A stretch of 48,575 nt of DNA, filler included, from Sphacelaria rigidula (taxonomy: Eukaryota), in assembly GCA_964200075.2 (NCBI GenBank). It is 3 parts of 3 records of this genome, joined end to end, with 100 filler letters (N's around TTAATTAATTAA, not from the genome) between each part and the next. Parts side by side here need not be neighbours in the genome. Positions count along the whole stretch, not along the records: positions 16,227 to 32,351 come from CAXNAA020001475.1; 2 more parts are not named here. The stretch is one strand, 5' to 3'. This document shows positions 12,512 to 37,489 of this stretch, one piece after another (position 1 is the first letter of the stretch; each line of letters opens with the position of its first letter). A program made the position numbers and the translations under genes. The notes beneath the pieces were generated by a model. That model was not told the DNA's origin, ran no database searches, and saw only the letters and a program-made list of their open reading frames with translations.

Positions 12512-12862
12512 ATTCTCCAGCCCATCATGGGCAAAGGGTTGATTCCGGCTGATCCCGAGACGTGGAAAATTCGCCGGCGGGCGATCGTGCCCGGGTTCCA
12601 CAAGGCGTGGCTTAACCGCATGGTGCGGCTTTTCGCTGAGTGCGCCGACACGTTAGTCGTGGAGGCGCAAGCAGCGGCAAAGTCCGGAGAGGTATTGGAC
12701 ATGGAAGAGAAATTCTGCTCGCTGTCTCTGGACATTATCGGGCGAGCGGTTTTCAACTTTGAGTTTGGGTCGGTCAGCGAGGAGTCGCCGGTGATCAAGG
12801 CGGTGTACCGCGTCCTGCGTGAGGCAGAGCATCGCTCTAGCTCGTTCATCCCTTACTGGAAG
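12512..12862 (+). CDS. CYP97: CYP97 exon 3
   Basis: ILQPIMGKGLIPADPETWKIRRRAIVPGFHKAWL...SLDIIGRAVFNFEFGSV..ESPVIKAVYRVLREAEHRS..IPYWK; acceptor ttccag|ATT, donor AAG|gtatt. Confidence 0.95.
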
Positions 12863-13373
12863 GTATTTTGTGTTGTGTATGTTATTTCTCCATTTGTCCA
12901 GTCTCGAGTCATTTCCCCAGGAATTGTGTTGGTTGAATTCGTTCAACAATTGAACCATCTCTACACACTAATACGATTGAAATTTCAATGGTTTGCCCAG
13001 CAAAGTGTGTGGTGGACACGTCGCCAGCCCGCGATCTATGATCAATGGTGAGGTTGCATGAGCGTGAAAGATGTTGAATGCAGAGTTGTGTTGTCACTGC
13101 AGTCAGTGGTGCACCGGAGATGAAATTATCGTGTGGGGAAGCTTTCGGCGTCGCAACCTCGAGTACATGACTAGGCGAGTCTGAATTTACGCTTGGGCTG
13201 CAAAGGTATCCACTTGCATCTGTGTGTGCTGCGTTGCGGCTTTTTTTTTTTCCCACCAGGTTTCCGTGGGATAGATGCTTACACAGTGAAGGTCTGCCAA
13301 CGCGTTACCTCCCAAGATTTGCAAAGCTCATACTTGCCATCCCCTGTCCCCCCGTGCCGTTGCGGTTGTATAG

Positions 13374-14474
13374 CTGCCGTTTGCCCGCAGATGGATAGCA
13401 AGCCAAGCGGAATTCTCGCGAGACATCGAGCTGCTGAACGCCGTACTGGACGAGCTCATCCAAAAGGCCCTCAAGACTCAACAGACAGCGGACCTGGAGG
13501 AGCTTGAGCGACGAGACTTGGACACCATCGAGGATCCCAGTCTCTTGCGCTTCCTCATCGACATGCGTGGCGAGGATACCACAAGTAAACAGCTTCGGGA
13601 CGACCTTATGACGATGTTGATTGCCGGCCATGAGACAACCGCCGCCATGCTCACATGGACGATGTTCAACCTGGCCCAAAACCCGGAAATACTGGCCAAA
13701 ATCCACAAAGAGATAGACGAATGCTTGGGGCCAGACGAGGACCGTGTTATGACGTTTGATGACCTTCCAAACCTGCTGTACACGAGGTTGGCCCTCGTCG
13801 AGGCCCTCCGGCTTTATCCCGAGCCCCCCGTCCTCATCCGGCGAGCGCTCAAGGAGACTGAGCTGCCGCAGGGAGGCGGCCAGGGTCCCGTGAAGCTGGT
13901 CAAGGGCACGGACGTGTTCATCTCCACGTGGAATCTCCACCGGAGCCCGGCTCTGTGGGATCGGCCGGCGGAGTACCGCCCGGAGCGCTTCTTGTCGGAG
14001 TTCCGTAATCCCGACGTAACGGGGTGGAAGGGCTTCACGCCCAAGATAGGGAGCGGGCTGTACCCAAGCGAGATCGACGCAGATTTCGCGTTTTTGCCGT
14101 TCGGTGGGGGTAACCGCAAGTGTGTGGGGGACCAGTTCGCGATGATGGAGGCCACCGTGACGCTGGCAATGCTGCTCAAGAAGGTGGACTTGACCCTGGT
14201 TGGGCTGCCGGAAGACGTGGGTATGGTGACCGGCGCCACCATACATACGGCGAACGGGTTGAAGATGAGGACGGCCCTGCGCAAGCCGTCGTCGGCGCCG
14301 TCCCTACCCGTGGGTGGTGGCGGGGAACTGCGCAATGGTCACGGTGCGAAAATCAACGGCCACGATGCCAGCGGTGCGGCGGACAGTCTATCTGGTGTGA
14401 AGCTCCAGACGGTGTCCATTGGGAACCCCGATGGTGGTCAGGGGAAGGGAAAGTGCCCGATGCATGATGCATAA
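13374..14474 (+). CDS. CYP97: CYP97 exon 4 (terminal); spliced protein about 782 aa, carotenoid hydroxylase family (LUT-like)
   Basis: Acceptor gtatag|CTG. Contains SLLRFLIDMRGED, I-helix LRDDLMTMLIAGHETTAA, ExxR (EALRLYPEPP), PERF and heme motif FGGGNRKCVGDQFA; stop TAA. Confidence 0.96.
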   Translation: MPFARRWIASQAEFSRDIELLNAVLDELIQKALKTQQTADLEELERRDLDTIEDPSLLRFLIDMRGEDTTSKQLRDDLMTMLIAGHETTAAMLTWTMFNLAQNPEILAKIHKEIDECLGPDEDRVMTFDDLPNLLYTRLALVEALRLYPEPPVLIRRALKETELPQGGGQGPVKLVKGTDVFISTWNLHRSPALWDRPAEYRPERFLSEFRNPDVTGWKGFTPKIGSGLYPSEIDADFAFLPFGGGNRKCVGDQFAMMEATVTLAMLLKKVDLTLVGLPEDVGMVTGATIHTANGLKMRTALRKPSSAPSLPVGGGGELRNGHGAKINGHDASGAADSLSGVKLQTVSIGNPDGGQGKGKCPMHDA

Positions 14475-16126: not shown

Positions 16127-16226
16127 NNNNNNNNNNNNNNNNNNNNNNNNNNNNNNNNNNNNNNNNNNNNTTAATTAATTAANNNNNNNNNNNNNNNNNN
16201 NNNNNNNNNNNNNNNNNNNNNNNNNN
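16127..16226. other. Artificial contig-joining linker (N44-TTAATTAATTAA-N44)
   Basis: Symmetric N runs around an all-frame stop linker; identical construct at 32352-32451. Confidence 0.95.
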
Positions 16227-19012: not shown

Positions 19013-21243
19013 GCAAGTGTTTATGCGTGCGGCGCGTCCGAGGGTGTCATGAATGAGCATTTGTAGCTGCAAGCAAACGAAAACCGCGCGTTAGGTGTCT
19101 GTTGTGCCCCTCCGCCCTTTTTTTTCTAGTCCTGTGGGGGAAACGTACTAGAGTTTACTGTGTTGTTGTATTTTTCTCTTAGTTTTCTTCACCTTGTTAT
19201 TTTTTCTCCTGAGTTACTATTAATATCTGTTTTTAGCTACTGTCTTTTTTTCTTATTGGCCTTCGAGCCGAGATTTCCTGACGTCTCTGGAGCTCCGCAA
19301 CCTCTGTCCCATTAGGAGCACCCACCAGGGTTTTTTCCCCAACACAAAGCAGCTGGCTAGCCGGCCTATCCCCCACGAAAGACCACACTCATTCCTGAGT
19401 ACCCTGTGTGTGCGTCGCACTATATCCACGAAGCTTGACCGAAACAGCCGGAGCACGAACCAAATCCTCACGGTGGCCAGTTGCCCTCGGGATCATCAAT
19501 AGAATGTTCATATTTATCCCGTTTTTGATCGGGCTTCGCACTGGACCACTTGATACTGTCGATTAAGCTGGAACTCGACTTAAAGTGGGACTGGCGACGA
19601 GGGCGCCGATAGTCCAGTTTAGTTGAAGCTTCTCGTCACCGGCTATATTTGCACCGTTTTTAGTATAGGGCAGTTCGACGCAGATTTCCAGGCAAATATT
19701 CTGAGATATTCGAGTTCAATATATGGGGGAACTCATCAAGAGCCCAAACATTGACAGACGACACATAACACTGTGTGGCCAACATTCGTGAAATCGGATA
19801 TAAGCGGGGGGTGAATGGTAGCGCAGGAGACAAGGAATAGCTGTCCCCGGGGATGATATCTACCGTGAGGATAGGGGTGGCACCCACCGTCTTGGCCTAC
19901 ACTGTGTAAATGGTAATACGTTTGGAGTGCATGAAAGCTTTCTCGGGCTACTTGGAATATGGAAATATCAAAATACGAAGTATAAAACGTATTTCCTCAT
20001 CAGGAGACTGAAAGAACGCACCCCCTCCTCGAATCAATCGTAACTCACGTGGTCTCTACCCTTTGGCCGGTCACGCACGAACGGCGATGCACCTCAACAC
20101 ACGAGCACATCGATAGGAATGTTAGCGATGAAGTACTATCCCCGCCCCGCCCATTTTTCCCCACCCGGGGATGATGTCGCTCTCTCCCGTCTCCAGATAG
20201 GATGGGGGTGTTATCCACCGTTTTAGCTGGTTACATAGGCATTCACACACGAACAGCGATGCTCCCGAACAAGCGGGGAGCACTGTTAGAACGTATCAAC
20301 CACATACTACTCCGTTATGACTACCTTCTGCACCCCATCCATTTTCCCGAGGAAGTCCCTGAACGATCTCAACCCAAAAAGGCAGGGTGTTATCCGACGT
20401 TTGAGTCATTTGCGATCGGACAACGATGGTTCTGAACTCGTGACCAGTACCAATGGAATAAGTACTATCTACCCTAACTAGTGATGACGCATGTTGTCTT
20501 CTTACCAGGGTTACAAACACCACGGATAAGATTTTGTAGGGAACAAAAGCCAAATATCGCATTTTCCTCGCCTCCGACGGCGCTCCCGCGAGATCCCGTC
20601 ACCAGCCGGGAGGAGAGGGGGTGCTGGGGCTCGTGGCTTTGCCACTCGCCGTCGATGTTCTCCCGGTTAATCGGCTTCCGCGAGCACTGGAAAAATATCA
20701 ATGCACTGACCGCTGGCGCGGTCAGGTTGAACTTAACTGGCCAGTGCCGCCAGTTCACAGCCCTACGCTTTAGCCTTATGCTTGTTGGCTTGCTCAATCT
20801 GCCGAGTAAAAAGCGCGATGAACCCGATTTGTGTCACCGATCCTACATCTAGGAAGCGGCATGGTGATGGGATTCCAACGCAGATGAACCGTTGCTCACG
20901 GAATATGAAAGCTTGGCGGGACGATGGGAAACCCAACCAATCTCCACGTTTCTTGTTTGATGACAAGTCCCACGCTGCCATGGGTCTCGTTTACGGAATG
21001 TTCCTCGACGGGGGTTTTCCCGAAAGACGCAACGTTCGGTGATGTAGCCGTCTTAACTTACGAGAGAATCGAGGTCAAGTTTCCATATCGCTCCCTGTGA
21101 TTTACTCCGACCACAAACCCGAACCCTATCCTAGACATGCTCTGGCCACAGATAGGATCAACCAGCCCCGCACTGATGAACCCAAAGCAAACAAAACAGG
21201 TCGTGAGTGCTGTTGCAATTTTACACAGTCAAGTAATCGCTGC

Positions 21244-21322
21244 GGGGGGGGGCGTGTACTCATTTGCTGCTTGCCTTAGTCGTTCGACCATGGACCATGC
21301 ATCCCTTTCGAGACGGAGCAAC
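21244..21322 (+). repeat. Dispersed short repeat (family C)
   Basis: gggggcgtgtactcatttgctgcttgccttagtcgttcgacc..gcatccctttcgagacggag recurs at about 22321-22400, 24627-24710 and 39680-39755, and more diverged at 36706-36845. Confidence 0.7.
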
Positions 21323-23372
21323 AGAGCAATCGCTGCGGGGGAGGCACTTATTGACCCCGACTTGAGACGGGAGCAGAGCGACCAAGCGCCATATCGTATA
21401 CTCGCCCTATCAATACTGAAAAAGGTGAAACCCGGTGCGCTTCCAGCCGTGCGGAATGCGCAACAAAAAGCAAAAAATCGCAGCCGAAACAGAAGGTGGC
21501 CTCAAACGGCACACAGCATCTCGTGGGTACGCACTTTACCCCGCAATGAGACAGACTCCTAGGCTAAACCTTGCGGCGGCGGCGGCTGCGGCGGTGTCTC
21601 GCTTGAGCGCAACGTCGCTCGACCAAGTGTAGGGTCAAAGAATTTGAGCTAGTCACACCCCAGCTTTTGAAAAATGCCGACGTTGTGTAGGATCGAAGAC
21701 GTTGGGCCAGTCACGCCCCAGCTTTTGAAAAAAGCCGAAGTTCTCCGAAGTTCGTGAGAGCATTCCGGCGGTGGCAGACATTCTCCGCAAAACGAAAGCG
21801 CATACTGTTTAGTCGACGACACATACATACTCCATCTACCGGAATAAATTGGTCGGCGATCAACACTCTGCAAAATATGATGACATACACGTTGGTATGC
21901 TTGCTGTCTTTGGACCTTTTCAAGAATGCTCGATCCGCTGAATGACTCTCTAGTTTTCCTCGTAAGCAGCAGGAGAGATGGGAGAGTCACCTAGTTGCGG
22001 CAGCATGGCGTTCAACATAGTCTTGGCAGGAATCGCCTCCATAAGCGCATCCTTCGTTGCTGCAGCACACTTCGCCTGAATCATGGACAACGTCAAACTT
22101 CTCCGCGTCCTGGAGGTGAAACGCGCGACTGGACCATCAGGAAGAAATGATCCTCCCGACACCGAATGTCTATCCCCAATTTTCGCTATAGCGAGGAGCT
22201 GTCCCGCCTACATCAGAAATATTAGGGCGTGGATTGCCTCGTTAGAGAGCCCACCGGCTCCCGGTATCTCCCCTACACGTCCTCCAACGTATCAACCCTG
22301 AACGAGGCCGAACATACGTCGGGGGGAGGGCGTGTACCCATCTGTTGCTTGCCTCAGTCGTTTGACCGGTTACCACGCATCCCTTTCGAGACGGAGAAAC
22401 GTGCGTCGGGGTGTAGAGGAAGCTTCGCGGTGTGACACGTCTCAAAAATACGGTTCTTGACGATAGTTTGGTATATGTTTAGAGCGTCCGCCTCTGGGGC
22501 ATGCGATAACTCCTAGTCGACATTCTTCTAGATTCTTACTCGGATTAATGGTTTATTTCGTCCGCATGGCACGCTATAACCATGTCGTCGACCAGCACCA
22601 AAGCCAATAGCAAAACTTCTCATCTCCATCCGTGAGCGTGCATGATACCTACTTGCCTAATTCCGTACAAAATCTTGCGGAACCTTACGACCGATCGGAT
22701 TGTTCTCTAATAATAACCCTGCGCCAACCTCGTATACATCACCTCTTTTTCAGATTGCACGGCGGCCTAATATTATCGACGTGGAAGTAGTAAACAACTT
22801 TGCTCTCAACACATGCAGCAGTCGCGACCACTACATTGATCGCAGGCAGAGGAGTGGGGAGGAAATGTCGTTATTTTCCTTTCTGATGCTCTGTCTCCCC
22901 TGTAAACCAATCTTCCTTTGGTCCTACACACATATCTATCATCCACTCGCAAGTGACATCTTTTCTGCCCTTCAACCAGAGAGTATACACCAGTCCAGTC
23001 CAGTTGCCTCCCCATCCTTAGCCTCGTGCCAGGCCTACTAGAAACTCCGAATTGACATGCCAATCATGCTGTAACATTTCCGAGACAGGCTCAATTTCGT
23101 ATGACGAGCATTCTTGGGGACGGCGGAAATATCGTAGTCCTCTTTCTTCATTTGATTTATGTGTAGCGTTGCAATATCCGCTCAAATTGTCATTGTTTCG
23201 CATTTCGGCGGGAATATCGAGCACACGTAGCCAGAGGTATACAATATCAAGATTTAGTTATGTAGGGTATACCCGAGGTGGGCGATTTTTGGTTTGAGAT
23301 ATTACACCGGAACGGAATATGTACCGAACATTCCGGTATGGCTGGGCAGTGTGCTGAGCCATGTTCCGAACA

Positions 23373-23534
23373 CTCCACATCCTGGACAATATATGGTCAA
23401 TAGTTGCAATAGACACAAAATGTACTGCATGAAGTATAGGCCTATCGCAACTACTATCGGCCGGCAATAGTTGTAATAGGCCTATACGTTATGCAGTACG
23501 TTTTTTGTATTGAAACTATTGGCCATATATTGTC
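23373..23534. mobile_element. Palindromic MITE (family B), right end truncated
   Basis: ctccacatcctggacaatatatggtcaatag...ctattggccatatattgtc is self-complementary and homologous to 24058-24238. Confidence 0.7.
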
Positions 23535-23898
23535 ATTATCCAGACTCTGTCGTCCATACAGTGTTTCATCTTATCAACCCACGCTACGCTACAGCTGTCC
23601 AGCCCTGCGTTTGTCACGACCTTTCTGACATTGTAGCTCTTACGGACCGTACCCTTCCACCTCTCGCACTCTGCCCTCGCGTCTGGGGTGGTTATGAAGA
23701 ATAGGTGTATTTCATCACCATCAAAGTCAGCTCCAGTGGGGTCACATGCCAACGTAGGAAATTGCAGACAGACTCCGATATGGTCGGTAAAGGGTGTTTC
23801 TCGATTCAATTCTCTTTTATAATTGTGTGCATGCCCGATTTGAAGGCGGTATACCATTCCCCCCAGAACGTAACGTTGGAAATTTTTTTTTTGAGATG
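23535..23898 (-). pseudogene. Fragment of a divergent two-barrel RNA polymerase largest subunit (beta'/RPB1-like catalytic loop)
   Basis: In ORF 23516-24175: CLQFPTLACDPTGADFDGDEIHLFFITTPDARAE, with ADFDGDE at 23711-23731. Aligns without gaps to the [22 protein letters not shown]-type region. Both ends of the computed ORF are MITE sequence. Confidence 0.7.
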
Positions 23899-24057
23899 CT
23901 TGAAAAAAGGAAAAAAACGGGGAAAAGAAACAAAAAAATGCCCTTATCGGGAGTATATGTACACCCTTAAAGCAGTGCGCACGCGCTGAGCCCGACACCC
24001 ATAGAACGCACCGAATGGCCGGCCGATGGAATGATACTGCGAACTTCGCTCGGAGTA

Positions 24058-24238
24058 ATGCACACCCTGGACAATATATGGTCAATAGATGCAGTAGACG
24101 AAAATGTACTGAGGTAAAGTATGGGCCTATTGCAACTACAGTATTGACGGACGACAATAGTGGCAATAGACCCATACTTTACTCAGTACACTTTTCGTCT
24201 GTTGCACCTATAGATCATATATTGTCCAGGGTGTGGAG
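24058..24238. mobile_element. Palindromic MITE (family B), Tc1/mariner-like
   Basis: About 180-bp hairpin cacaccctggacaatatatg...catatattgtccagggtgtggag, with TA on both flanks. Confidence 0.75.
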
Positions 24239-25063
24239 TACTGCACGACCCCAAGATGGCGTGTCGTTTTGTGCTTTCGATCGATTCGATGGTGTGGTTC
24301 ATTGATGGATGGATGGATCGTCGCACACTGACATTATCCGATTCCTCTATCGTTGCGAACCCAGCCGTGGTGGAGCAGAATGTTTATTTTTTCTATGGTT
24401 CAGCATGTGCTTGAATGCTACTGGGCAGTCGCGGCTAAGCCAATGGTGTGTTTTGTTCCTTGTAAGAAACAAAAGGTACATCGATTGTAGTGTAGTGTAG
24501 TGTAGTGTGCTGTGCTCTGCTGTGCTCTGCCGTGCTCTGCTGTATTTCGTCCTGTTGACATATCTTGCGTCAGTTTTTGGGACCTACTTCATTTTCTCAC
24601 TTCTCCATGGTATATCGCGTTCTCGGGCGGGGGAGAAGGGGTGTACTTATTGGTTGCTTGCCTCAGTCGTTTGACCGTTGACCACGCATCCCTTTCGAGA
24701 GGGAGCAACGTTCTTGGGGGGGGGGGGGGGGGGGGGGTGTGGCCAAAAAATTTTCTGGGAAAATGTTGTGATTAAAAAAATGTCGAGAAAACACCCAAAA
24801 AAAAAAAAAACAGNNNNNNNNNNTGTTGGTGTGTCGTCTGGGGTGTGTTGTGGGGGGGGGGGGGGGGGGAGGGGGGGGAGGGGGGGGGGGGGGTGGGGGT
24901 GGGGGGGGGGTTCTGGCCACAAACTTATCTGGGAAATTGTACTGATTAGAAAAATGTTCCGAAATGACCCATAAAAAAATAGCAGCATTCTTGTGAAAAG
25001 GGTACGAGTCCAACACACTGTTAAATGTCATCTCGATTCTACGGTGGTGGACAATGACAATAG

Positions 25064-25398
25064 GGGATAAGAAGAAGAGGCGGAGGAGAACCAAAAGGAG
25101 CGAGAGCAACCGAGAGAGACGCACGGCGAAAAAGCGACGACCGGCAGCGTCCTCGCGAGGGCAAGGGGGAGTCGGAGGAGGTCCACTGGAGTCATTTGTG
25201 GTGGAGGTCCCCGGGGGATGCGAGGTGCAGTGCTTCGTGATGGTGGATGACAGGGACGAGAGGTTGGTGATCGCGGTGGGCGACGCGCTGACTGGGGAAG
25301 CGTTGCTCGGGTGTCTAGCTGAGGAGCCAGCTGTGGTGCAGCTCGCGTCGCATGGGTTGATGCGGGAAACTGGATGTGTCAATCGCGCGGCGTTCCAG
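25064..25398 (+). CDS. Class-3 lipase-like gene, internal exon (5' boundary uncertain)
   Basis: EVQCFVMVDDRDERLVIAVGD...GCVNRAAFQ resembles the lipase-3 N-terminal strands. Donor CAG|gtgtgt, phase 0, joins the 27111 exon. Confidence 0.7.
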
Positions 25399-26079
25399 GT
25401 GTGTGTGTGCGTGTGTCGGTGTCGGTGTCGGTGTCTGTCCGTCCGTGTCTTTATCCCTGTAAGCCTCTGATTTGATTTTGATCTGGACTAACTTTATTTA
25501 TTGTCACCCAGTAACTGATCCTCCAGGTAGTCATTATCCGGCTGTGGTCATTATCCACATCATAGACCTATCCGAGACAAAACAAATCAGAAACACTCGC
25601 TCTAGGGAAATATGAAGTAGAAAGCAGAACAAGTGGGACAGAAACAGAGACTAGACTGAAAATAAGAAGGACCCCCCCCCCCCTCCCCTTCCACCCCTAG
25701 AATTGGCCGGCATCTGCAACATGGCTTCGGGTCGAAAGGGTCTCGCACAGCAGCACACGCAGTCATCCGCCATACCCAGTCGAGGGAACAAAGCAGGAAG
25801 CCGCTGGGATAGATTGCGGCTCATCTGTCTCGATCACACCATGTTGGGTATGAGCTCTCACCCGTGAACCGTACGGAAGCAAGGTACCAAACTGCGACTG
25901 GCATACACTGGGAGGAAACAACGCACGCACAGAGTGATGAGGAGACAATAATCTTATTATTCCTCATAGAACAGAGAAGGAGACTACAGGAATGATGGAG
26001 CCCAAGGGCATCGTACAGTACAGGACTTACAAACGCACAGACTGGGGAACACCGCAATACCACCGACTGAGGACAAACA

Positions 26080-26790
26080 TTAACAACCCATGGGAAAAAA
26101 CAGAGGTGCATCTGATTCCGTGTTCGCTCCGCTTCCCCCTTCATCGCTAGTCGAGTACAAAGCGGGCCATTCTCTCGGACATTTCCATCCTGGATTCCTC
26201 GTCAGCTGTTGCTGTTGTTGTGTTAGCGGTGGCAGCTCTCCGATTAGCGGCTCTCGACGCAGCAGCCTCTCGTTTGTGGCAGAGTTCCGATTTGCGTTTT
26301 CTTCGCGTCGCCACGTGACACCCAACCCTTCCGCCCCATTTCTCGACTCAAAGATGCCATTTGCCCATGTTCTTCGCCGTAGTGACCCAGTCGTACGCGT
26401 CGTTAACCTCCACACCGTCGGTCAACAATTTCCGTTGTTTGATTCCGATGAAAAAATTTCCCATCCGCGCTGACAGCACCGCCGAGGTAGACGGACTTCA
26501 TCGTCTCCTTATACCGTTGACCAGCCGCGCTGATGTGCGGGTTGCGGTCTCTGCGGAGCTGGGTATTGACCACGGATGCATGAACTCTGCTTTACTCTCC
26601 GATACTGTCAGGCCGAACTCCTGACAGGCCATCACCGCCACGGCCATCATCCTAGCAAGCCCGTCTGGGGACCTCGAGTTTGTGCCGATGTCATCCGCAT
26701 ATGGCATTGCCCACATCGAGTGCGTTACCTCCTCCACCGGCGTCTCTTCCAGAAAGTCCATCATCGTCATCTTTTGACGCATCATCTATG
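26080..26790 (-). mobile_element. Truncated, internally deleted non-LTR retrotransposon (RTE-like LINE) in a lipase intron
   Basis: WAMPYADDIG...GLARMMAVAVMACQEFGLTVSESKAEFM carries the YADD RT motif and an FGLTVSxxKxE segment typical of RTE-type RT. A further decayed ORF follows at 26080-26415. Confidence 0.8.
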
Positions 26791-27110
26791 GAACTACCAA
26801 GTCTGAGACGATGGCAAAATTCAGTACATCTTGCCTCCTATCGCTTTACCTGTGCCTCCCTCTATCGCTCTACCTGTTTCTCCGTCTGTCGCTCTACCTG
26901 TGCCTCTCTGTTTGACTGTTATCTCTTGTTTCAGTCTGTTTCCGTCTCTTGTCTGCATTTTTTCTGTCTATGTGTATGTATTATGATAGCGCGTGTCGAG
27001 ATATATTCTTCTTTCCCAATTCCACTGCATAGAAGCACCAGAAAAAAACCTTTCATGAACGTGCCACCACTCTTCCTCCCCGCGTACTCCGTTCCCCCCG
27101 ATATTTTCAG

Positions 27111-27776
27111 GCTGCGTGCGACATTTTGGAATGGGCTGGTCCGCACATCAAGGCGTCGCTAGCACCGGGCGGGCAGTTCGAAGGCTACCCCGTGCACTGC
27201 GCAGGCCACTCCTTCGGGGGCGCTGTAGCGGCGTGCCTCGCCGGAATGTTGGACGGCGCGATCGACGTGGAGCCGAGCGACTCTCCGGGGAAGAGGAACG
27301 GCAACGACAGCGACAGCGACAAGAATGACCCGAGCCCATCCGCATCCAAAGGAAGGAAAAACGCCGGATCTTCTTCGTCTTGGAATGGTGGTAGTAGTGC
27401 TGCTGGCGACGTGCCTTCCAAGAGAAGACGCCGTAACGTTGATGGAGGATCGTCGAAGAGGCGTGACGAAGCAGGCAGAGGAGATGCGCGGTCGGAAAAA
27501 CAGAAGAAAGAAAAGAAGAGCTCCACCTTGGCCAAGGCACCTGCCGGGTCTGGTGAAGATACTGCGGGGAAGGATCCGGGGGAGGTGAGGGTGGACGGGG
27601 CTGCGCCGTGGGTGGGCGTCTGTCGGGATCGGACGACGTGCGTAACGTTCGGGTGTCCGCCGTGTCTGTCGGGGAACTTGCGGGTGCCGTTCGTCACTTC
27701 GTTCGTTCTGGGGGATGACATGGTGCCGCGTACGAGTCATGAATCTCTGCGGCGGCTCAAGATTCGGCTCTTGCAG
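27111..27776 (+). CDS. Class-3 lipase-like gene, catalytic exon
   Basis: Acceptor ttttcag|GCT. VHCAGHSFGGAVA (GxSxG), CVTFGCPP and SFVLGDDMVPR (catalytic Asp region). Probable donor CAG|gcgagt. Confidence 0.85.
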
Positions 27777-29373
27777 GCGAGTCGGGGGGAGAAGTGGGGA
27801 GTGGGGGGGGGGCGTACACCGTAGTCATATGATTATTGACCTCGCATCCCTAGGAAGTCGGGACGGAGCACGCCGGGTTGTCATCGGACCAGGCTCGGGG
27901 GGAAGAGTGGGGGATTATTTATATGTCGAAATGTGCTTTTTTTTTTTCCTGTACCGAAGGGTCTGATTCATGTGGGGTTTCTGCTATTGTTTATTATTTG
28001 GTGTTGCCGTTGTTGTCTTTGTATTCATGGTGTTTATTTGTTTCAGGCTCCTGGCAGTACTACTGTACGGAGTATACCATACCACTACGTGTTGTTTTTG
28101 TTTCCACAGTTTCGTTTTATTCGTTCATTTGTTTTGTTTATTTCAAGCTCCGGGAATTTTTGCATCGAATACTACTTTGGCAAGGGACTACCTAACCCTG
28201 CGCCAACGGTCGCTTTACCTTGTGTGCGTGGGATGGATGAAAGGTGGGTTCCGCCGCCCATCTTGTGGTGCGTGCGAAAACCCTCCTCTGAAAGAAGACT
28301 CCCCCTTGCGATGATGGAATACAAGAATCGGTTCTATTCTGAAACAACCTATCATCACCATTCGATAATGATCGATTGATCGGTCGATTGTCTGATTGAT
28401 TGATCGGTCGATTGTCTGATTGATTGATTGTCGTACATTAACTTACCCCGGAGAGACCCATTCGTGGTCATTATCCACGTGATGGACGTAATCAAAGTTA
28501 CACAAAATGGAAACGCTCGCTAAATAAAATAATATCGGCGGAATAGAGACAGAACATTGTGTTCCCTTTTAAAAAAAAAATAATGATCCAACTCCAACAA
28601 ACGACCTCAACCACTCCCAACAATAAAATTATATTCCATTGAACAACTGCTTTTTCCAGTACACACTCCGTCACACACATTTTTGACAGTTTTCTGGGAC
28701 CCTCAGCCGCAGTACAGCAACAGTTTCACGACAGGGTTTTACGCCCAGCATTTTTTTTAATTGATATATATATATATATATGTATACATATGTATACAGA
28801 ACAAACGCATAAGAAAGCGACATGACGAACTACGATATGGGTAGAGCCACGGCTGTGTGCAGTTCTGGTTGGGTGTGCTTAGCTCGTGCACACGAGGAAT
28901 AAGTAAATATGCAGCTAACAGTATTCCTTCATGCAGTATCGCCGTGTTTTCGTCATTCATCATGAGGAGTCGCGTCATCGTTCAATCCTCTGAGGGTTGG
29001 CAATTTTGCAGACAGAGATTAATGTCGACTCGGTCAGGATTCTATCTCATGAGCACTGGTTTCTCACGCACAATTTTTCTGCTTTTGTTTCCGAAGTCAG
29101 ATCTGCTGTGTGTTTGTATATGCGTTTGGAAAAATACCGCCTCTTCCAAGGGTTTAACGCCGCACACCCCTGTACTTTCCTTTTGTTTTCCTCTTTGTTG
29201 CTTCGGGTCGGCCGTTTCTTTCTGCGCTTTGCTTGTGTTGAATTTTTATTACTTTTTTTCTTGTCACGACTTAGTCTGCTACGTCGTTCTGTTCGACCCC
29301 GCCCTTTCTTTTTCCTGTTCCTTTTTTTTTTCTTCCTTAGAGCGTGTTTGAATTCCGTTTTCCTTGAGTACGT

Positions 29374-29436
29374 CTATCATGAGACCGCGGCTAGACCCCT
29401 GGGGAGTCAGTTAAAGTGCGACAATCAATCAATCAA
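29374..29436 (+). repeat. Retroposon-like 3' end with (AATC)n tail
   Basis: Homologous to 16686-16756; ends caatcaatcaatcaa. Confidence 0.55.
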
Positions 29437-30256
29437 CCCCTCGTGACCGTGACGTTGTTTTCTTTTTCTCTTTTTCGTTTTTTTTCGTTTTTTTTCGTTT
29501 TTTCGTTTTTTCGTTTTTTCGTTTTTTCGTTTTTTCTTTTTCTTGTGTTTCTTCCTTCTTTTATTTCCTTCTCCTCCCCCCCCCCCTCCTTTTTTTCTAT
29601 TGTTTCTTGTGATATTTTGTGTCTTTTCCTCTTTCCTCTTTAATTCCATTCTCAAGTTCTACCCCATAACAACGGACTAGACTCGCGTGCACGCCAAAAT
29701 ATTTCCGAGAATGGAGACAGATCACCAACCGCAATGTCATGAGAGGGGAACAACAAAAGTTGCAAATCTGCATGCGTGGAGGAAGATTCTGTAATCCTCA
29801 CCGTTTCATGGAGAGGAGAAAAAGACACGATGCGCGGTTCGTTCCTCCCGTTTGTTTGTTTTTCTCCTGTGAGGGCTGCTTAGGCAGGAGCCGAAAGCAA
29901 TGGTTGATGCATACAGAGCCAACACATGCATAATACTAACGATCACGCTGATCCTAACCTTAGCCTTAACCTTAACCCCAACCATATGAAGTCTGATGAC
30001 ATCATTTCTGACTCTGCGCCAATCACGTGCACGCGCGTATGTATTTGGTGTTCAATCAATAGCTTTTCGGCTGTTTTCTCAACTCTGCTAGTCTTCTTTT
30101 GTACCATCTTTATTTCTCTCTCTTTTTTTTTTTTTTCCCTTTTTTTTTCTTTTTTTTTTTTTCTTTTTTTTCCACCCTGGTGATTCTGAAGGTATAGGGC
30201 TTGTTTTCTGTTCCCCTTTTTTTTCCTTCTTGCTTCTTCGGTCGCTCTCCACCCAG

Positions 30257-30355
30257 GTGATGCCGAAGAGAAAGGGCTTGCTATCGCAGGGAGTGGCGTT
30301 CGGAAGCAGCCTCTTCACGGATGTAGCGGGGGTAGCTGTACAAGGGGTTCGACAG
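30257..30355 (+). CDS. Class-3 lipase-like gene, downstream exon; rest of the gene not found before the contig break
   Basis: Acceptor ccacccag|GTG after a long pyrimidine tract; VMPKRKGLLSQGVAFGSSLFTDVAGVAVQGVRQ; donor CAG|gtacg; phase 0/0. Confidence 0.65.
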
Positions 30356-30986
30356 GTACGCTCATTTTCATTCCTTTTTAAATTGGTTAGGAATAGTGGG
30401 GAGACTTGCAGCTCTGGTGAGCCGCCCTCCTCCTGTGGAGCATGACAAAACCTCGGTGACGGGATAGAATATTACGCGAGGTGATGGAACGTTATTTCCA
30501 GGAGAATGCTCCCGGATCCATGCGGAGTAGACCGTATCCCGATGTGTGTGGATGTGGCTGTGTAAAACGATGGATGTATACGAGTTGTCATACATAAGCA
30601 CGTCCTGATACTGTGTTCATGTAAATATACGAGTACCCCCCCCCCCCCACTCGCCCAGCCCCATACGTTTGTTGAAAGTTGTTCATAAAATCGAAAACGT
30701 CAATGCGAGTAGAACGGTAGTGCTTTTGGTGTCTGTCTTTTTCTCGGTTTTGCTTTTAGTCTCGGCCCTCGTTTTTTTTTTTCAATTCACCGAGAGCAAG
30801 TACATACTGTACTTGTAGTCTGACTTGAATGTATGCGTGTTGTCATCCCGTCTCTTCTGGACGCCAGTCTACGCTTGTCGGTACGTGTTGGCGCATCAGC
30901 CGGGGTCACGCAGCAGGAAGATCACCACAGGATTTTTTTTTTCATTTTTTCATTTTATTTTTTGTTTTTTGAAGTTTTATTATTTT

Positions 30987-31452
30987 AGGCTGCTCCTTAT
31001 AACAGACAGAAATAATAATCTGGAATTTTTTCTTTTTGGAGCTTTTACGTCGTTTTACGCCCCAAAAGAGAGCTAGGAGGAGTTTGACACCTTGGAATGA
31101 CCTGCTCTAGTAGTTGAGGCGGTTCCAGGACGTCTTCCCGTTTTCCGGTGGCCGCAGTTTTCATTTTGGCCAAACAAGAACTTGTGTCAAAGAACGGTAA
31201 AAAACAGTCAAATCTAGAACAAATCGCCACTTTTCTCTGGACTTCACTGTTTTTTACCGTTCTTGGACAAGAATTCTTGTTCGGCCAAAATGAAAACTGC
31301 GGCCAACGGGAAAAGGGAAGGTGTCCTGGAACCACCTCAACTAGTAGAGCAAGTCATTCCAAGGTGTCAAACTCCACCTAGCTCTCTTTTGGGGCGTAAA
31401 ACGACCTAAAAGCTCCTAAAAGGCAATTTTCCAGATTTTTATTTCTGTCTGT
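30987..31452. mobile_element. Long-TIR palindromic MITE (family A), copy 1 of a tandem pair
   Basis: About 220-bp inverted arms around a short core (30987-31210 vs 31245-31452). Confidence 0.85.
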
Positions 31453-31457
31453 AGACC

Positions 31458-31930
31458 GATCCTTATAGCAGACAAAAATAAAAATCTGAAGAAGTGCCTT
31501 TTTTGAGCTTCCACGTCGTTTTACGCTCCAAAATAGAGCTAGGCGGAGTTTGACACCTTGGAATGACTTGTTCTAGTAGTTGAGGCGGTTCCAGGACGTC
31601 TTCCCGTTTTCCGGTGGCCGCAGTTTTTATTTTGGCCAAGCAAGATTTTCTTTCCACGGACAGTAAAAAACAGTCAGGCCCAGAGAAAAGTGGCGATTTT
31701 TCTATATCTGACTGTTTTTTACCGTTCTTCGACAAAAATTATTGTTCGGCCAAAATAAAAACTGCTGCCACCGGGAAAAGGGAAGATGTCCTGGAACCGC
31801 CTAAACTAGTAGCGCAAGTCATTCCAAGGTGTCAGGCTCCGCCTAGCTCTCTTTTGGGGCGTAAAACAACGTAAAAGCTTCAAAAAGGCACTTTTCCAGA
31901 TTTTTATTTTCGTCTCTTGTAAGGAGCATC
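31458..31930. mobile_element. Long-TIR palindromic MITE (family A), copy 2 of a tandem pair
   Basis: Same arms as copy 1. The core (aaatcgccacttttctctgg) is in the opposite orientation. Confidence 0.85.
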
Positions 31931-32351
31931 ACCAGTATTTTTAATCGTCCTTTTCGTTTAATTGATCGACGTATGCTTTGACGTGCTGCTTCTATTTGTC
32001 AAGTCTAAATTTGGTTTCAGCACTCCACCTTCCTTCTGCAGTCCTTGCCTTTCTTGTCATCGCTGAAAAGGGTTCATCGATCCTTTTCCCTCGTCGATCG
32101 TGAAGTCGGACTTTTGTGTACCCAACACATAGTCGCTCTCCACCGCTGGGCATAATGTGAGCACAAAAACTCAGATCATGTGTACTTCACGGAGATTCCA
32201 ACCCACGTCCGAGTGATGCTACGGTAGGGGTAGAGAAATAATTTCTGAGGTTAGAATTGTTAGGAGCCCCCTATCTCATCTCCAGAACACGACTTATAAA
32301 AATATGCGAGTACGCCAGGATTACTATTCCAATGTGCTGGGGATATCCCGA

Positions 32352-32451
32352 NNNNNNNNNNNNNNNNNNNNNNNNNNNNNNNNNNNNNNNNNNNNTTAAT
32401 TAATTAANNNNNNNNNNNNNNNNNNNNNNNNNNNNNNNNNNNNNNNNNNNN
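32352..32451. other. Artificial contig-joining linker
   Basis: N run, TTAATTAATTAA, N run. Confidence 0.95.
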
Positions 32452-32617
32452 AATCAAATCAACACGAGAAACCAAATGGGGGGGGGAAAAAAAAACGAAC
32501 ACAGGTGGTGGTAGTGGAGCGATAGAAACACGCACTACACTCCATACTACACGACACACACGCAACCGTCATCACAACCATCACGGTCATGACAAAAAAA
32601 GGAGTCTCGTACTTCAC

Positions 32618-33519
32618 CTGCCCCGGACGTAGCCGCCCTCTTGCCCAGCACACTCTCGCCACCCGCAGCCCCACTCGCGCCCGCCCCTGCCCCACCCGCA
32701 GCCCCTCTGAGGGCACCTCTATCTCTCATCTCCCGGGTAGAACCTGGAGCAGGAGGCGTGGACGCCGACCCAGTAGAGACCGCTGCGGCCTTAGAAGGCG
32801 AAGCAGTATTTGAAGGGCCCGGGGCTGTCTCAGGCAAGCCATCGCTCTTCATGTTACTGCTGTCGTCGGCTTCTCCGTTTCCTGCTGCGGCCGCTGCGAC
32901 CTCCCCCGCCTTGCTTCCGGCGTGGGCTCCGAGCTTGCCCCCCGCTGGTGGCGCCGCCTCAACGCTGTTTTTGACGCCCTTGTCATGCTTGACTGCTATG
33001 CTATCGTCGTGGCTGTCGCCCTTGACATCTCCGGGCGATTTTTGGTCGTCGTCCTCACCACCCTCGGCAGCGTCCTTTTTCACCTCTTCTTCGACGTCCC
33101 TGATATTCTTTACCACAGCTCCGTCGCCCTCGCCATCGTCCCCTTCGGTCCTGTCGTCCTTGCCGGCCTTATCAGCCTTGTCGGTCAAGTTGGTACTGGC
33201 AAGGCTGCTTGCCTCGTCGCTCTTAGCAGCATCGGATACTGAAACCGCAGGCGCCGCTACTGCCGCTCCCACGGCTGCCGCCGTTTCTGCCCCCGCCGAG
33301 TCATCACAATGACTGTCGGAAGGGGGAGGCAAAGGCACAGGCGGGGGAACCGGGGAGCGGGAGCGAGAACGTACGACAACGCCAAGGGGTGGCAGCGGTC
33401 CGGCACTCTTTTTGCTGCTCTTCGTCTCGTCCTTCGACTCCGCGTCGGGAGTGGGCTTTCCCTCGCCTGTTTGTGCACCCTCTTCCATTCCATCTTCATT
33501 AGCCGTGACCTTGGACGTT
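32618..33519 (-). CDS. Unknown protein, exon 8 (Ala/Gly/Asp/Lys-rich, disordered); gene runs into the contig break
   Basis: Acceptor gttgtcag|A, phase 2, matches exon 7. Long open frame (32547-33488 ORF). Donor near 32618 (CAG|gtgaag) or 32613. Confidence 0.7.
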
Positions 33520-34384
33520 CTGACAACAGCAACATATGGGGCGAGGGAAGCAGGTCGGGGGGGAGAGGGGGGGGAGAGGGCATAACGACGGTGAACGTTT
33601 GTGCACGGTGTCAGCCAGCTACTGCGCTCACCAGGCCGGATTCTGGTGTCATGGGCACATGCGATGGTTGACTGACGGCAAGTGGCTTTTGCCTACTTCG
33701 AAGCCGGGCGCTAAGGCATAGGTTGCACAGGGAAAAAGTATCCTCGAACCATTCGACTCAATGGATGATGAGACAGCGTAGCACGTCAATTCAGCTTTTC
33801 TTGAGCTGTCGTCGACATCTTCGACAAACAGCTGCTGGCTGCCGCGGTGAAGACGCAAAAACTATGTCACACATAATAATACTGAACACTGCCTATGTGA
33901 GCGCGATGTGTGCTCGGAGGGCGAGGGTACAAATGCAAAATATTTTGTTTCGTTCATGTAAATCTAGCGTTCGCTTTTGATTCGCCACGCTTTACTCCAC
34001 GCCACTTGGTAAGGACCCCAAGAACCCTGCCCAACCGCCGAGGAGCCGCGACAACCCAATCATCGCCAAAACACGTTGGGTAGGCCGCAACTGTACTCTC
34101 CCTGTGCGTGGCACACGCAAGCAACCGCTTCACACTACTTTGGTTCCGATTTGCACTTCTCTCTCGGCAACTCGTTGGAAAAATACACCTTCCATCAAGA
34201 CGGAGCGATCAACCGATCGGTTGGTTGGTTGATTGATTAATCATCCCGCATATTACATTAACTCATGCCCGAGGGATTTGAGCCATGATGACTATTGTAC
34301 GAAGTAGGCGATCAGGCTGTACAATACACACTATTGTAAGACCTGCTTTGCGCGGGCAGAAAGCCCACGTCATGCCGCACTAAC

Positions 34385-34503
34385 CCGTTGGCTGCCTCCA
34401 GCTTCTCCAGCTGAGCCCTCAGAACCGCCATACGCTTCACGTGCTTCACCCGAAGCTGCTCGTGCTCGGCGGCAGCAAGCACAAGCCTTTTAGCCTCATC
34501 TAT
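34385..34503 (-). CDS. Unknown protein, exon 7 (coiled-coil-like)
   Basis: gagcag|IDEAKRLVLAAAEHEQLRVKHVKRMAVLRAQLEKLEAANG|gttagt; phase 0/2. Confidence 0.75.
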
Positions 34504-34754
34504 CTGCTCAGTAGGACGAGGGAACAACAAAGGAATATAAAAAATCGAGACACATACAGTACATGTACATGAATGACACACACACAAAATAGGGCGTGGA
34601 CAAGAACTAATCGGCGGTTGTCGTACTCAAGCGAAAAGCAGCACGCGCAGTAAGCGTCTTGAGAACCTCTCGGGGGGGCGAGACTCCCTCATGCCCACCC
34701 TCGGTGAGCCACTCCGAAAATATCTTCATCAGCTGCATCCCCTGAATAAGTTTC

Positions 34755-34890
34755 ACACCCTGGACAAAATATGCTCAGTTGTTGCTGTAGACAAGAAATG
34801 TACTGCCCATAGTATAGGCCTATTGCGACTAATGTCGCGACACGGACTATACTGTACGCAATATATTTCTTGTCTATTTCCAAGGTATAG
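34755..34890. mobile_element. Diverged family B MITE in an intron
   Basis: cacaccctggacaaaatatg...aaatgtactg..gtataggcctattgcgact is similar to 24058-24238. Confidence 0.55.
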
Positions 34891-35304
34891 TGCGGTGAGT
34901 CGCCGGCCCGGAATGAGCGCACTGTACTGTTACAGTAAAATGACTTGATGTCAGTATAGAGGATCGGACTTGTGTGGTTCATCACGCTGTTGTGGGACCA
35001 CACACTTTAAAGGATCGCACTATAACGGGACCCCGTTGTACTGGGATTGAACATTAGACGTCGATCTTGTTCTGGAGAATGATACGGTACCCGAGGAGTT
35101 AAAAACATGTCGTATTTTTGAGAGGTTGAGATGACATTAAACAGAAAATAAAAAAAAGCAGGCCTAAGCGATACCGACAGCGCCCAAGTACACCAACCGC
35201 AAACAGGACGGGAAACAGAAGTGCAGGGACTACCGCGTCCCGTTCATCGCTTCGTTCAGGACGATCAAGAGGAGTACTGTTGAAAAAAAAAGAGTTGCAC
35301 AAAC

Positions 35305-35424
35305 CTTCTCACGGCGCTTAGTGTCCAAGTCCTTCTGGCGCCTGGTTGTATCGGCAGCCACTTCCCGAATCTTCTCCATTGCCACAGCTGCTCGGGTGTT
35401 GTACAGCGCCGACTCGCGCTCATC
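35305..35424 (-). CDS. Unknown protein, exon 6 (coiled-coil-like)
   Basis: ttcacag|DERESALYNTRAAVAMEKIREVAADTTRRQKDLDTKRREK|gtttgt; 40 codons. Confidence 0.75.
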
Positions 35425-35727
35425 CTGTGAACGGAGAAACGTTCATGCATCCGCCGAAACAAAAAAAATAGCATCAAAAGCACGCATGAAAGAGAAACTT
35501 GAAACATAGTGACCTAGAGTCGCCGATACAAGTAAGTCACCGATGCGCCCGGGAGAAAAAAAATCGCCGACCGCTACATGATTTTTTCTTTTGTTTCGCA
35601 ATCACATGAATCATCGTGCCTTCTCACTCAAAACGACAGACCCACCGTCCGAAGGCCGGGGGCGTGAGCACTCACCACGGGGAAAAAACAACGCACCACA
35701 TCTCATCACATCGCATCGCATAACCAC

Positions 35728-37454: not shown

Positions 37455-37489
<35 letters not shown>

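What the first reader, a model, noticed from the sequence alone, without database searches (positions are those of the whole stretch)
23535..23898. Orphan divergent RNA polymerase catalytic loop (GADFDGD): possible relic of a virus or mobile element carrying its own two-barrel RNAP
Seen: the minus frame encodes CLQFPTLACDPTGADFDGDEIHLFFITTPDARAECERW, with all three catalytic Asp intact. Known: multisubunit RNAP largest subunits have NADFDGD, preceded by a hydrophobic strand (AIQLHPLVC in bacterial beta') and followed by EMNLHxPQxxxxRAE in eukaryotic and archaeal subunits. The spacing from DFDGDE to ARAE here matches without gaps. However, the nearly invariant Asn is Gly, no NRQPxLH segment is recognisable upstream, and the flanks do not resemble RPA1, RPB1, RPC1 or plastid rpoC1. 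Phaeoviruses such as EsV-1, the usual brown-algal endogenous viruses, are reported to lack RNAP. Inference: this derives from another RNAP-encoding agent (other giant virus, mirusvirus-like, linear plasmid or large transposon), now fragmented by MITEs. A pyrimidine tract ending tcaag at 23899 leaves open that it is a spliced exon.
Basis: partly seen in the sequence, partly recalled or inferred. Interest (0 to 1): 0.85.

Follow-up and report, generated by a model that had tools for sequence, protein, structure and literature searches.

The report
Relic of a mini-RNA-polymerase virus gene
A short dead piece of a viral-type RNA polymerase gene sits between two small transposons in an algal genome, and its closest relatives are an unnamed family of half-size polymerase subunits that, where their neighbours can be seen, lie in compact virus-like genomes.

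Summary
The minus strand of 23546-23785 encodes ...CLQFPTLACDPTGADFDGDEIHLFF..., and the similarity goes well beyond the 7-residue motif. The fragment is not a copy of a host RPA1, RPB1, RPC1 or rpoC1 gene. Its relatives are an unnamed family of about 570-660-residue beta'-like proteins (phmmer E 1.3e-10 against 1.84 billion proteins; family HMM E 4.4e-18). A profile of the family matches archaeal and eukaryotic RNAP largest subunits at E about 1e-25. A model of one member aligns to RPB1 at Z about 18 through the active site, bridge-helix and trigger-loop zones. Two metagenome contigs carry clade-A members in 94-98% coding, intron-less gene blocks. There the neighbours are a family-B DNA polymerase, an 833-residue Rpb2-like subunit, a protein with a TFIIS zinc ribbon and a D5-like helicase. 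The window holds only about 9-14% of such a gene and no other gene of that block. The fragment is bounded by two copies of a very high-copy palindromic MITE and sits on a long branch. DNA runs show at least one paralogue elsewhere at about 92% identity. Best reading: a decayed endogenous fragment of an RNAP-encoding virus-like agent for which I found no description. The spliced-exon idea gained no support. Context is known for the sister clade only.

The parts
23546..23785 (-). Relic of a mini beta'-like RNAP catalytic subunit, about 80 codons. The HMM-aligned core is 23609-23770 and the envelope is 23546-23794.
   Evidence: tblastn of 5 family proteins against the window gave E 2.8e-17 to 3.4e-9, all at this one place. 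Family HMM: E 4.4e-18, profile positions 211-264 of 595.
23714..23734 (-). Codons of GADFDGD, the catalytic loop with all three Asp kept and Gly where cellular enzymes have Asn.
   Evidence: In the family alignment this position varies (H, N, A, D), so it is not conserved in this family.
23786..23898 (-). In-frame upstream stretch with no significant likeness to the family. It is either decayed beyond recognition or unrelated DNA. No RPPxL or NRQPxLH segment is present.
   Evidence: It lies outside or at the edge of the HMM envelope, and the tblastn alignments start at 23785 or below.
23899..23960 (-). Pyrimidine-rich tract ending ...tcaag.
   Evidence: Sequence. No other exon of this protein is in the window.
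23385..23534 (.). Palindromic MITE copy that abuts the 3' end of the relic and supplies the last codons and the stop of the open frame.
   Evidence: Inverted repeats I3 and I4. DNA hairpin -50.7 kcal/mol, z -12.4. k-mer depth 20,000-40,000 against about 27 for the unique flanks.
24054..24242 (.). Second copy of the same MITE family on the 5' side. It makes up much of the upstream part of the 220-codon open frame.
   Evidence: Inverted repeat I2 and direct repeats D3 and D4. The 22-mer core occurs 3 times in the window against 0 expected. Depth is about 37,000.

Best explanation
The stretch is a dead, endogenised fragment of the catalytic (beta'-like, largest-subunit) gene of an RNAP-encoding virus-like DNA agent. 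It has no function of its own. It carries only about 54-80 of the roughly 600 codons of the parent gene: the strand leading into the double-psi beta-barrel loop, the Mg-binding DFDGD loop and the helix after it. It is cut off on the 3' side by a MITE. It has no recognisable upstream RPPxL segment, zinc site, bridge helix or trigger loop. The parent protein, inferred from relatives, is a miniature archaeo-eukaryotic-type RNAP largest subunit of about 570-660 residues. That protein keeps an N-terminal C..H..C.GH zinc site, the K.GxxR and S.R.VI.P segments, RPPxL, ADFDGDE, a long helix in the bridge-helix position and a QxxLxxxH segment in the trigger-loop position. In the sister clade it is encoded next to a family-B DNA polymerase, and in one contig also next to an 833-residue Rpb2-like subunit, a TFIIS-ribbon protein and a D5-like helicase. 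That set implies a self-sufficient replication and transcription module of the kind that cytoplasmic large DNA viruses carry. Shown: the homology, the isolation of the fragment, the MITE borders, the second genomic copy and the gene neighbourhood of two clade-A loci. Inferred: that the agent is a virus, that clade B has the same genome type, and that the piece entered the algal genome by integration and then decayed.
For: (1) Family membership: phmmer hits P0002 at 1.3e-10, P0003 at 1.0e-8 and P0004 at 1.3e-6, with 51-54% identity; family HMM E 4.4e-18. (2) The family is a true RNAP largest-subunit homologue. Its members reach Pfam RNA_pol_Rpb1_2 at up to 61.8 bits. The profile matches PDB Rpo1N, RPA1 and RPB1 at E 7e-25 to 1e-19, while bacterial beta' scores only 1e-13 to 1e-17. 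VIA-align gives Z about 18, with model residues 112-389 on human RPB1 359-1100. (3) Virus-like context. In L009, 97.6% of 13,341 bp is covered by seven long ORFs without introns. They include Rpb2_6 (E 8.9e-17), DNA_pol_B (1e-28), DUF5906 with a PHROG DNA primase hit (2e-15) and a TFIIS ribbon (4.5e-4). L008 has the same convergent beta'/PolB pair. (4) Isolation. tblastn of 5 family proteins and of 9 L008/L009 ORFs, and the HMM scan, find nothing else in the 48.6 kb. The window otherwise holds host-type genes: P450, lipase_3 and a kinase. (5) Decay. The end branch is 2.21 against a median of 0.68, the upstream motif is lost, and MITEs sit at both borders. (6) It is genomic. DNA contigs of two studies cover it at the single-copy level, about 26-30.
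Against: Gene context is known only for clade A. The window fragment sits in clade B, for which no locus could be fetched. No capsid, packaging ATPase or VLTF3 gene was seen in the 13.3 kb and 4.1 kb available, so 'virus' as against plasmid or another mobile element is not shown. The 129-codon stretch from 23902 down to the stop is free of stops and frameshifts, and all three Asp are intact. In the paralogue, the two listed differences inside the ADFDGD codons are both synonymous, which could hint at past or present constraint. A second contig with 11-12 differences in 147 bp, at depth 81.6 in one run and 24.4 in another, shows that the piece belongs to a small repeat family; this would also fit carriage by a host transposon. 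The AF2 model is of middling confidence (pLDDT 58.8).
Confidence: 0.78

Rival explanations
1. It is a pseudogene fragment of one of the host's own RNA polymerases (RPA1, RPB1, RPC1, a Pol IV/V-like paralogue, or plastid rpoC1).
For: The best PDB sequence hits of the fragment are cellular largest subunits: NRPE1 at E 0.002 and RPC1 at 0.023. Foldseek's top PDB hit for the relative's model is Pol IV NRPD1 at 4.3e-8.
Against: Those hits are marginal, whereas the unnamed family scores 1.3e-10 in a library about 10,000 times larger. The family proteins are 570-660 residues, not 1,400-2,000. With the family profile, bacterial and plastid-type beta' score far below the archaeo-eukaryotic type. The Foldseek E-values for Pol IV, archaeal, Pol I, Pol III and ASFV enzymes are all within one order of magnitude, so none stands out.
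Confidence: 0.03
2. It is a live exon of a host gene, a domesticated viral polymerase piece spliced into a transcript, as the acceptor-like tract at 23899 suggests.
For: The frame is open for 220 codons. A pyrimidine tract ends in AG directly upstream. The catalytic Asp residues are intact, and the two paralogue differences inside the motif codons are synonymous.
Against: No other part of the roughly 600-residue protein is anywhere in the window. The 3' end of the frame and about 90 of its upstream codons are MITE sequence. The fragment alone lacks every other element needed for catalysis.
Confidence: 0.05
3. The fragment is cargo of a host transposon or a segmental repeat, a captured gene piece that spread within the genome, rather than the in-situ remnant of an integrated viral genome. 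Its ultimate origin would still be the mini-RNAP family.
For: There is at least one more copy at about 92% identity, with k-mer depth 81.6 in run X1 against about 27 for single-copy DNA, and 24.4 in run X4. The piece is framed by two copies of one MITE family. No other gene of the agent lies nearby.
Against: The paralogous contig stops matching the window upstream of 23771, so the two copies do not share the flanks at 90% likeness. MITEs at thousands of copies will flank many loci by chance.
Confidence: 0.12
4. The parent family belongs not to a virus but to a capsid-less element (a linear-plasmid-like replicon) or to an unsampled cellular lineage.
For: No capsid or packaging gene was found in L008 or L009. 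The group is absent from IMG/VR in three family-specific scans. Yeast cytoplasmic linear plasmids are known, from recall, to pair a DNA polymerase with a reduced RNAP, a helicase and a capping enzyme.
Against: The PolB is of the RNA-primed kind: Pfam DNA_pol_B, and the PDB profile is best on archaeal PolB, delta and alpha at 5e-42 to 1e-33. Only a sub-threshold DNA_pol_B_2 hit appears, in L008. PolB relatives lie on contigs of up to 56.9 kb, larger than known killer plasmids (recalled). A cellular origin is unlikely given 94-98% coding density with overlapping genes on both strands.
Confidence: 0.15

Closest known systems
RNAP largest subunits of Nucleocytoviricota (pithovirus, poxvirus 147 kDa, ASFV) and of archaea and eukaryotes (Rpo1N, RPA1, RPB1, RPC1)
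   Same: The catalytic ADFDGDE loop, the K.GxxR and S.R.VI.P segments, and an N-terminal zinc motif are shared. A helix and a QxxLxxxH segment are placed where the bridge helix and trigger loop lie. Scores: profile E about 1e-25, Foldseek BFVD 6.5e-9, VIA Z about 18. The neighbours (PolB, Rpb2-like, TFIIS ribbon, D5-like helicase) are the hallmark informational genes of these viruses (hallmark list as quoted in 10.1101/2025.02.06.636530, passages seen).
   Different: The proteins are less than half the length (570-660 against 1,150-1,450 residues or more). Only Pfam domain 2 is detectable; Rpb1 domains 1, 3, 4 and 5 give no hit. The Asn before ADFDGD is not conserved. The group is not found in IMG/VR.
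Baculovirus and nudivirus LEF-9 / LEF-8 RNAP
   Same: It is also a drastically shortened beta'/beta pair in a eukaryotic DNA virus. The sizes, about 500 and 880 residues, are recalled.
   Different: No Pfam LEF-9 or LEF-8 hit appeared. Foldseek places nudivirus and baculovirus LEF-9 at E 4e-5 to 2e-3, below about 35 large-DNA-virus RNAP entries. The catalytic loop here is the canonical ADFDGDE.
Phaeovirus endogenous elements of brown algae (EsV-1-like GEVEs)
   Same: They are viral DNA integrated and decaying in an algal nuclear genome.
   Different: The phaeovirus-like GEVE of Undaria lacks RNApolA and RNApolB (10.1101/2025.02.06.636530, passages seen). A beta'-like relic therefore cannot come from that kind of virus.
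Mriyaviruses / NCLDV-like dwarf viruses, the small relatives of giant viruses
   Same: They are small, compact genomes related to Nucleocytoviricota and known mostly from metagenomes.
   Different: Mriyaviruses encode neither RNA polymerase subunits nor a DNA polymerase (10.1101/2024.02.29.582850, abstract and passages seen). The loci here encode both.

Membership tests
Multisubunit RNAP largest subunit (Pfam RNA_pol_Rpb1_2, PF00623) | Catalytic loop with three Asp (NADFDGD) in the double-psi beta-barrel | tested here: met
   GADFDGD at 23714-23734 with all three Asp present and Asn replaced by Gly.
Multisubunit RNAP largest subunit (Pfam RNA_pol_Rpb1_2, PF00623) | Score at or above Pfam's gathering threshold of 25.3 bits | tested here: not met
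   The window fragment scores 23.4 bits, E 8.1e-5. Six of the 7 relatives scanned pass, at 25.4 to 61.8 bits (P0002, P0003, P0006, P0007, L008 and L009); P0004 gives no hit.
Multisubunit RNAP largest subunit (Pfam RNA_pol_Rpb1_2, PF00623) | The rest of the catalytic subunit: upstream NRQPxLH-like segment, zinc site, bridge helix and trigger loop | tested here: not met
   None of these is in the window. The HMM covers profile positions 211-264 of 595 only. Relatives have RPPxL, C..H..C.GH and helices aligned to the bridge-helix and trigger-loop zones of RPB1.
Unnamed mini beta'-like family (P0002-P0013, P0024-P0026, L008, L009) | Significant match to a family profile built without the query | tested here: met
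   E 4.4e-18, 61 bits, the only hit in the window. phmmer E 1.3e-10 to 1.1e-4 to 5 members. The tree puts it in clade B with SH-aLRT 99.
Eukaryotic RNA-dependent RNA polymerase (RDR, Pfam RdRP PF05183) | Profile match around the DxDGD loop | tested here: not met
   The fragment gives no RdRP hit at E up to 10. Relative P0003 gives only E 0.16.
Baculovirus / nudivirus LEF-9 | Profile or fold match better than to other RNAPs | tested here: inconclusive
   No Pfam hit. Foldseek E is 4e-5 to 2e-3, weaker than for NCLDV enzymes. No dedicated tree was made.
Endogenous element of Nucleocytoviricota (GEVE) | Other hallmark genes nearby (MCP, A32 ATPase, VLTF3, PolB, D5, RNAP B) | tested here: not met
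   In the window, none of the 9 L008/L009 ORFs other than beta' gives a hit with E below 0.1. MCP, ATPase and VLTF3 of this group are unknown, so they could not be searched for.
Nucleocytoviricota (for the parent agent, seen in L008 and L009) | Double-jelly-roll capsid, A32 packaging ATPase and VLTF3 alongside PolB, D5, RNAP and TFIIS | tested here: inconclusive
   PolB, a D5-like helicase, Rpb1-like and Rpb2-like subunits and a TFIIS ribbon are present. No capsid, ATPase or VLTF3 was detected in the 17.4 kb available, and two ORFs (535 and 334 aa) match nothing.

The most novel reading that the evidence does not exclude
The relic records past infection or integration in this algal lineage by an undescribed lineage of small, compact DNA viruses. 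These would carry their own transcription and replication core, built around the smallest archaeo-eukaryotic-type two-barrel RNAP yet seen: beta' of about 600 residues, beta of about 830, a TFIIS-ribbon protein, an RNA-primed PolB and a D5-like helicase. Such a lineage could be either a minimal branch of Nucleocytoviricota or a sister to it.
Probability: 0.4. Interest if true: 0.8.

Novelty: new variant of a known kind. Interest (0 to 1): 0.62.

Why it matters
The fragment itself is inert. What matters is where it points. It is a fixed mark that an RNAP-encoding agent, unlike the RNAP-less phaeoviruses usually found in brown algae, has entered an algal germ line. The family it belongs to has no name in the libraries I searched. 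If the parent elements are viruses, they would give a natural minimal version of the eukaryote-type multisubunit RNAP core, about 1,430 residues for both catalytic subunits. That is useful for asking which parts of the enzyme are dispensable. They would also add a new small-genome lineage to the debate on how large cytoplasmic DNA viruses arose. The algal relics offer a host assignment that metagenomic contigs cannot give.

Tried and rejected
- **Whole-genome search:** no genome is held for this window, so other copies, longer copies and host RNAP genes could not be searched.
- **IMG/VR scans.**
  - Family-specific scans for clade A and clade B found none.
  - The PolB-specific scan gave only 19-28% identity hits.
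- **Phage collection:** only Rhizobium jumbo-phage beta' at 27% identity.
- **Prokaryote genome scan:** one bacterial false positive, L025. L010 from the metagenome scan is likewise bacterial.
- **Sequencing runs:** no RNA holder is listed. In two runs guessed to be RNA, no contig covers 23521-23988, while 25063-25399 is covered. This says nothing about expression either way.
- **Capping-enzyme reading of the L009 721-aa ORF:** it rests only on motifs seen by eye (KVDGER, DGVV, WKLK, a Rossmann-like IIDVGSS). There is no Pfam or PDB support, so I do not claim it.
- **Two exhaustive-search hits dropped:** P0005 and P0008 are repeat proteins, dropped as noise.
- **Paralogue differences:** only 8 of the 11-12 are listed by the tool, 3 synonymous and 5 not. 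That is too few for a selection test.
- **Literature:** nine full-text searches found no paper describing this group.

Full report
**1. The observation**

The minus strand of 23516-24178 is an open stop-to-stop frame of 220 codons. From 23902 downwards it reads QASQKKNFQRYVLGGMVYRLQIGHAHNYKRELNRETPFTDHIGVCLQFPTLACDPTGADFDGDEIHLFFITTPDARAECERWKGTVRKSYNVRKVVTNAGLDSCSVAWVDKMKHCMDDRVWIMTIYGQ*. The GADFDGD codons are at 23714-23734. The pyrimidine tract ending tcaag at 23899 is present.

**2. More than a motif**

- Pfam gives RNA_pol_Rpb1_2 at E 8.1e-5 and 23.4 bits, just below the gathering score of 25.3.
- Against PDB sequences the best hits are plant Pol V NRPE1 (E 0.002, ungapped from ADFDGD to A[RK]AE), then RPC1, archaeal Rpo1N, RPB1 and RPA1 at E 0.02-1.6. 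These are marginal.
- The exhaustive phmmer search of 1.84 billion representatives returned 7 proteins. Two (P0005, P0008) are tandem-repeat proteins that I discard as noise.
- The other five (P0002, P0003, P0004, P0006, P0007) match at E 1.3e-10 to 1.1e-4 with 38-54% identity over 43-56 residues, far beyond the motif.

**3. The family**

Word-indexed searches added P0009-P0013 and P0024-P0026. All are unnamed, come from the sources 'lgn' and 'ena', and lie on contigs of 2.6-36 kb. Full-length members have 566-657 residues.

The alignment shows these segments in order:
- an N-terminal C..H..C.GH motif;
- K.GxxR and S.R.VI.P;
- RPPxL..QP;
- ADFDGDE;
- a QQ..QG.IG..R.ARVA block;
- a QQ.LDAHRA block.

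Evidence that this is an RNAP largest-subunit homologue:
- Members reach PF00623 at up to 61.8 bits.
- A profile of 10 members hits archaeal Rpo1N at 6.7e-25, RPA1 at 8e-22, RPB1 at about 1e-20 and RPC1 at about 6e-19. Bacterial and plastid-type beta' reach only 1e-17 to 1e-13.
- An AF2 model of P0007 (pLDDT 58.8, about 80 in the barrel) matches large-DNA-virus RNAPs in BFVD (pithovirus 6.5e-9, entomopoxvirus 1.1e-8). LEF-9 entries score only 4e-5 to 2e-3.
- The same model matches Pol IV, archaeal, Pol I, Pol III and ASFV enzymes in the PDB, all near 1e-7.
- VIA-align gives Z about 18. Model residues 112-322 fall on human RPB1 359-859, and model residues up to 389-392 fall on 1100-1103, or yeast 1078-1081.
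- This places the QQLSQGEVGRIGRAAR block (residues 319-334) in the bridge-helix zone and QQALLDAHRA (382-391) in the trigger-loop zone. The Q-x2-L-x3-H spacing equals that of the yeast trigger loop as I recall it; that comparison is recalled, not tested.

The family is therefore a true but miniature archaeo-eukaryotic-type largest subunit.

**4. Where the family lives**

Three IMG/VR scans with family-specific patterns found no member. The prokaryote genome scan gave one false positive. The metagenome scan gave two real loci and one bacterial false positive.

L009 (13,341 bp, the whole contig) is 97.6% covered by seven long ORFs on both strands:

| ORF | Match |
|---|---|
| 535 aa | none |
| 334 aa | none |
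| 833 aa | Rpb2_6 at 8.9e-17 and a sub-threshold Rpb2_7 hit; Rpo2 and RPB2 in PDB at 8e-12 |
| 721 aa | N-terminal TFIIS zinc ribbon, E 4.5e-4, just under threshold |
| 618 aa | the mini beta' |
| 795 aa | family-B DNA polymerase, 1.1e-28 |
| 530 aa | DUF5906; PHROG 'DNA primase' helicase part, 2.1e-15 |

L008 (4,085 bp) repeats the convergent beta'/PolB pair. The PolB profile is closest to RNA-primed archaeal, delta and alpha enzymes (4.7e-42 to 1e-32). PolB relatives sit on contigs of up to 56.9 kb. This is the informational core typical of cytoplasmic large DNA viruses, in a very compact form. No capsid or packaging gene was recognised in the 17.4 kb available.

**5. What the window holds**

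- tblastn with five family proteins, tblastn with nine L008/L009 ORFs, and a family HMM built from 14 sequences without the window against every six-frame peptide of 25 residues or more all find one place only.
- The HMM hit has E 4.4e-18 and 61 bits. It covers profile positions 211-264 of 595, that is window 23609-23770 with an envelope of 23546-23794.
- The window therefore holds 9-14% of one gene and nothing else of the agent.
- The 3' end runs straight into a palindromic MITE at 23385-23534 (hairpin -50.7 kcal/mol, z -12.4). A second copy lies at 24054-24242.
- The k-mer depth of these elements is 20,000-40,000 against about 27 for unique DNA.
- The rest of the window has host-type genes: P450 exons at 12425-14471, a lipase_3 and a kinase start.

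**6. Placement and decay**

In a 16-row tree the family splits into two clades, each with SH-aLRT 99.
- Clade A holds P0007, P0009-P0013, L008 and L009.
- Clade B holds P0002-P0004, P0006, P0024-P0026 and the window fragment.

The fragment's end branch is 2.21 against a median of 0.68. Its best identity is 46% over 70 columns, to P0002. The tool warns that long rows are placed insecurely. Relative to P0002 the fragment lacks 15 residues after SYNV. The RPPxL segment is not recognisable.

**7. Copies and transcripts**

- Runs of a coded 'organism A' (three studies) and of an 'algae metagenome' hold the stretch.
- DNA contigs cover the fragment at depth 26-30.
- A second 595-bp contig matches 23625-23771 with 12 differences (X1, depth 81.6) and 11 differences (X4, depth 24.4), and departs from the window upstream of 23771. 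So there is at least one paralogous copy.
- Of the 8 listed differences, 3 are synonymous, two of them inside the ADFDGD codons, and 5 are not. That is too few to test.
- Whether the piece is transcribed stays open: no run on record as RNA is listed among the holders.

**8. Verdict**

- The fragment is real. It is homologous to RNAP largest subunits, is not a host RNAP copy, and is most simply a decayed endogenous piece of an RNAP-encoding virus-like agent.
The exon suggestion is not.
- The class of the agent stays open because no structural gene was seen, and because context exists only for the sister clade.
- I found no paper describing such a group in nine searches.
- Mriyaviruses and NDDVs, the known small relatives of giant viruses, lack both polymerases (abstract and passages seen).
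- The phaeovirus-like GEVE of Undaria lacks RNApolA and RNApolB (passages seen).
- Supplements were closed and may list related contigs.

Noticed in passing
window 23385-23534 and 24054-24242 (also 22234-22467): A palindromic MITE of about 150 bp folds into a near-perfect hairpin. Its k-mer depth is 20,000-57,000 against about 27 for unique DNA, which suggests on the order of a thousand copies per genome. Contigs guessed to be RNA also carry it.
   Followed up: partly
window 24574-24807: A G-rich / poly-G repeat block next to a 10-N gap has summed k-mer depth of 0.4-1.2 million in the DNA runs. This is an extremely abundant simple repeat or satellite.
   Followed up: no
window 25063-25399: This stretch is covered without differences by contigs of about 2.1-2.2 kb from two runs guessed to be RNA (depth 112-134). 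It is probably an expressed exon of a neighbouring host gene. No piece of those contigs maps to the RNAP fragment.
   Followed up: no
window 12425-14471 (+), 27033-27821 (+), 2644-3501 (-): Host-type coding pieces: cytochrome P450 in at least two exons (E 1.3e-51 and 2.2e-11), a class-3 lipase motif region (2.1e-6) and the start of a protein kinase domain (7.5e-7).
   Followed up: partly
L009 5256-7421 (-): A 721-aa ORF joins an N-terminal TFIIS-type zinc ribbon to a body with KVDGER, DGVV and WKLK motifs and a Rossmann-like IIDVGSS segment. By eye this resembles a guanylyltransferase-methyltransferase, but Pfam and PDB give no support.
   Followed up: partly
L009 7420-7421: The divergent 721-aa and 618-aa ORFs overlap by two bases at their start codons, and two other gene pairs overlap by 44-49 bases. 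Promoters must therefore lie inside neighbouring coding sequence, or the true starts lie further in.
   Followed up: no
window 16127-16226, 24814-24823, 32352-32451, 38311-38320: Six runs of N (196 bases in all) mark assembly gaps. One lies only about 900 bp from the fragment.
   Followed up: no
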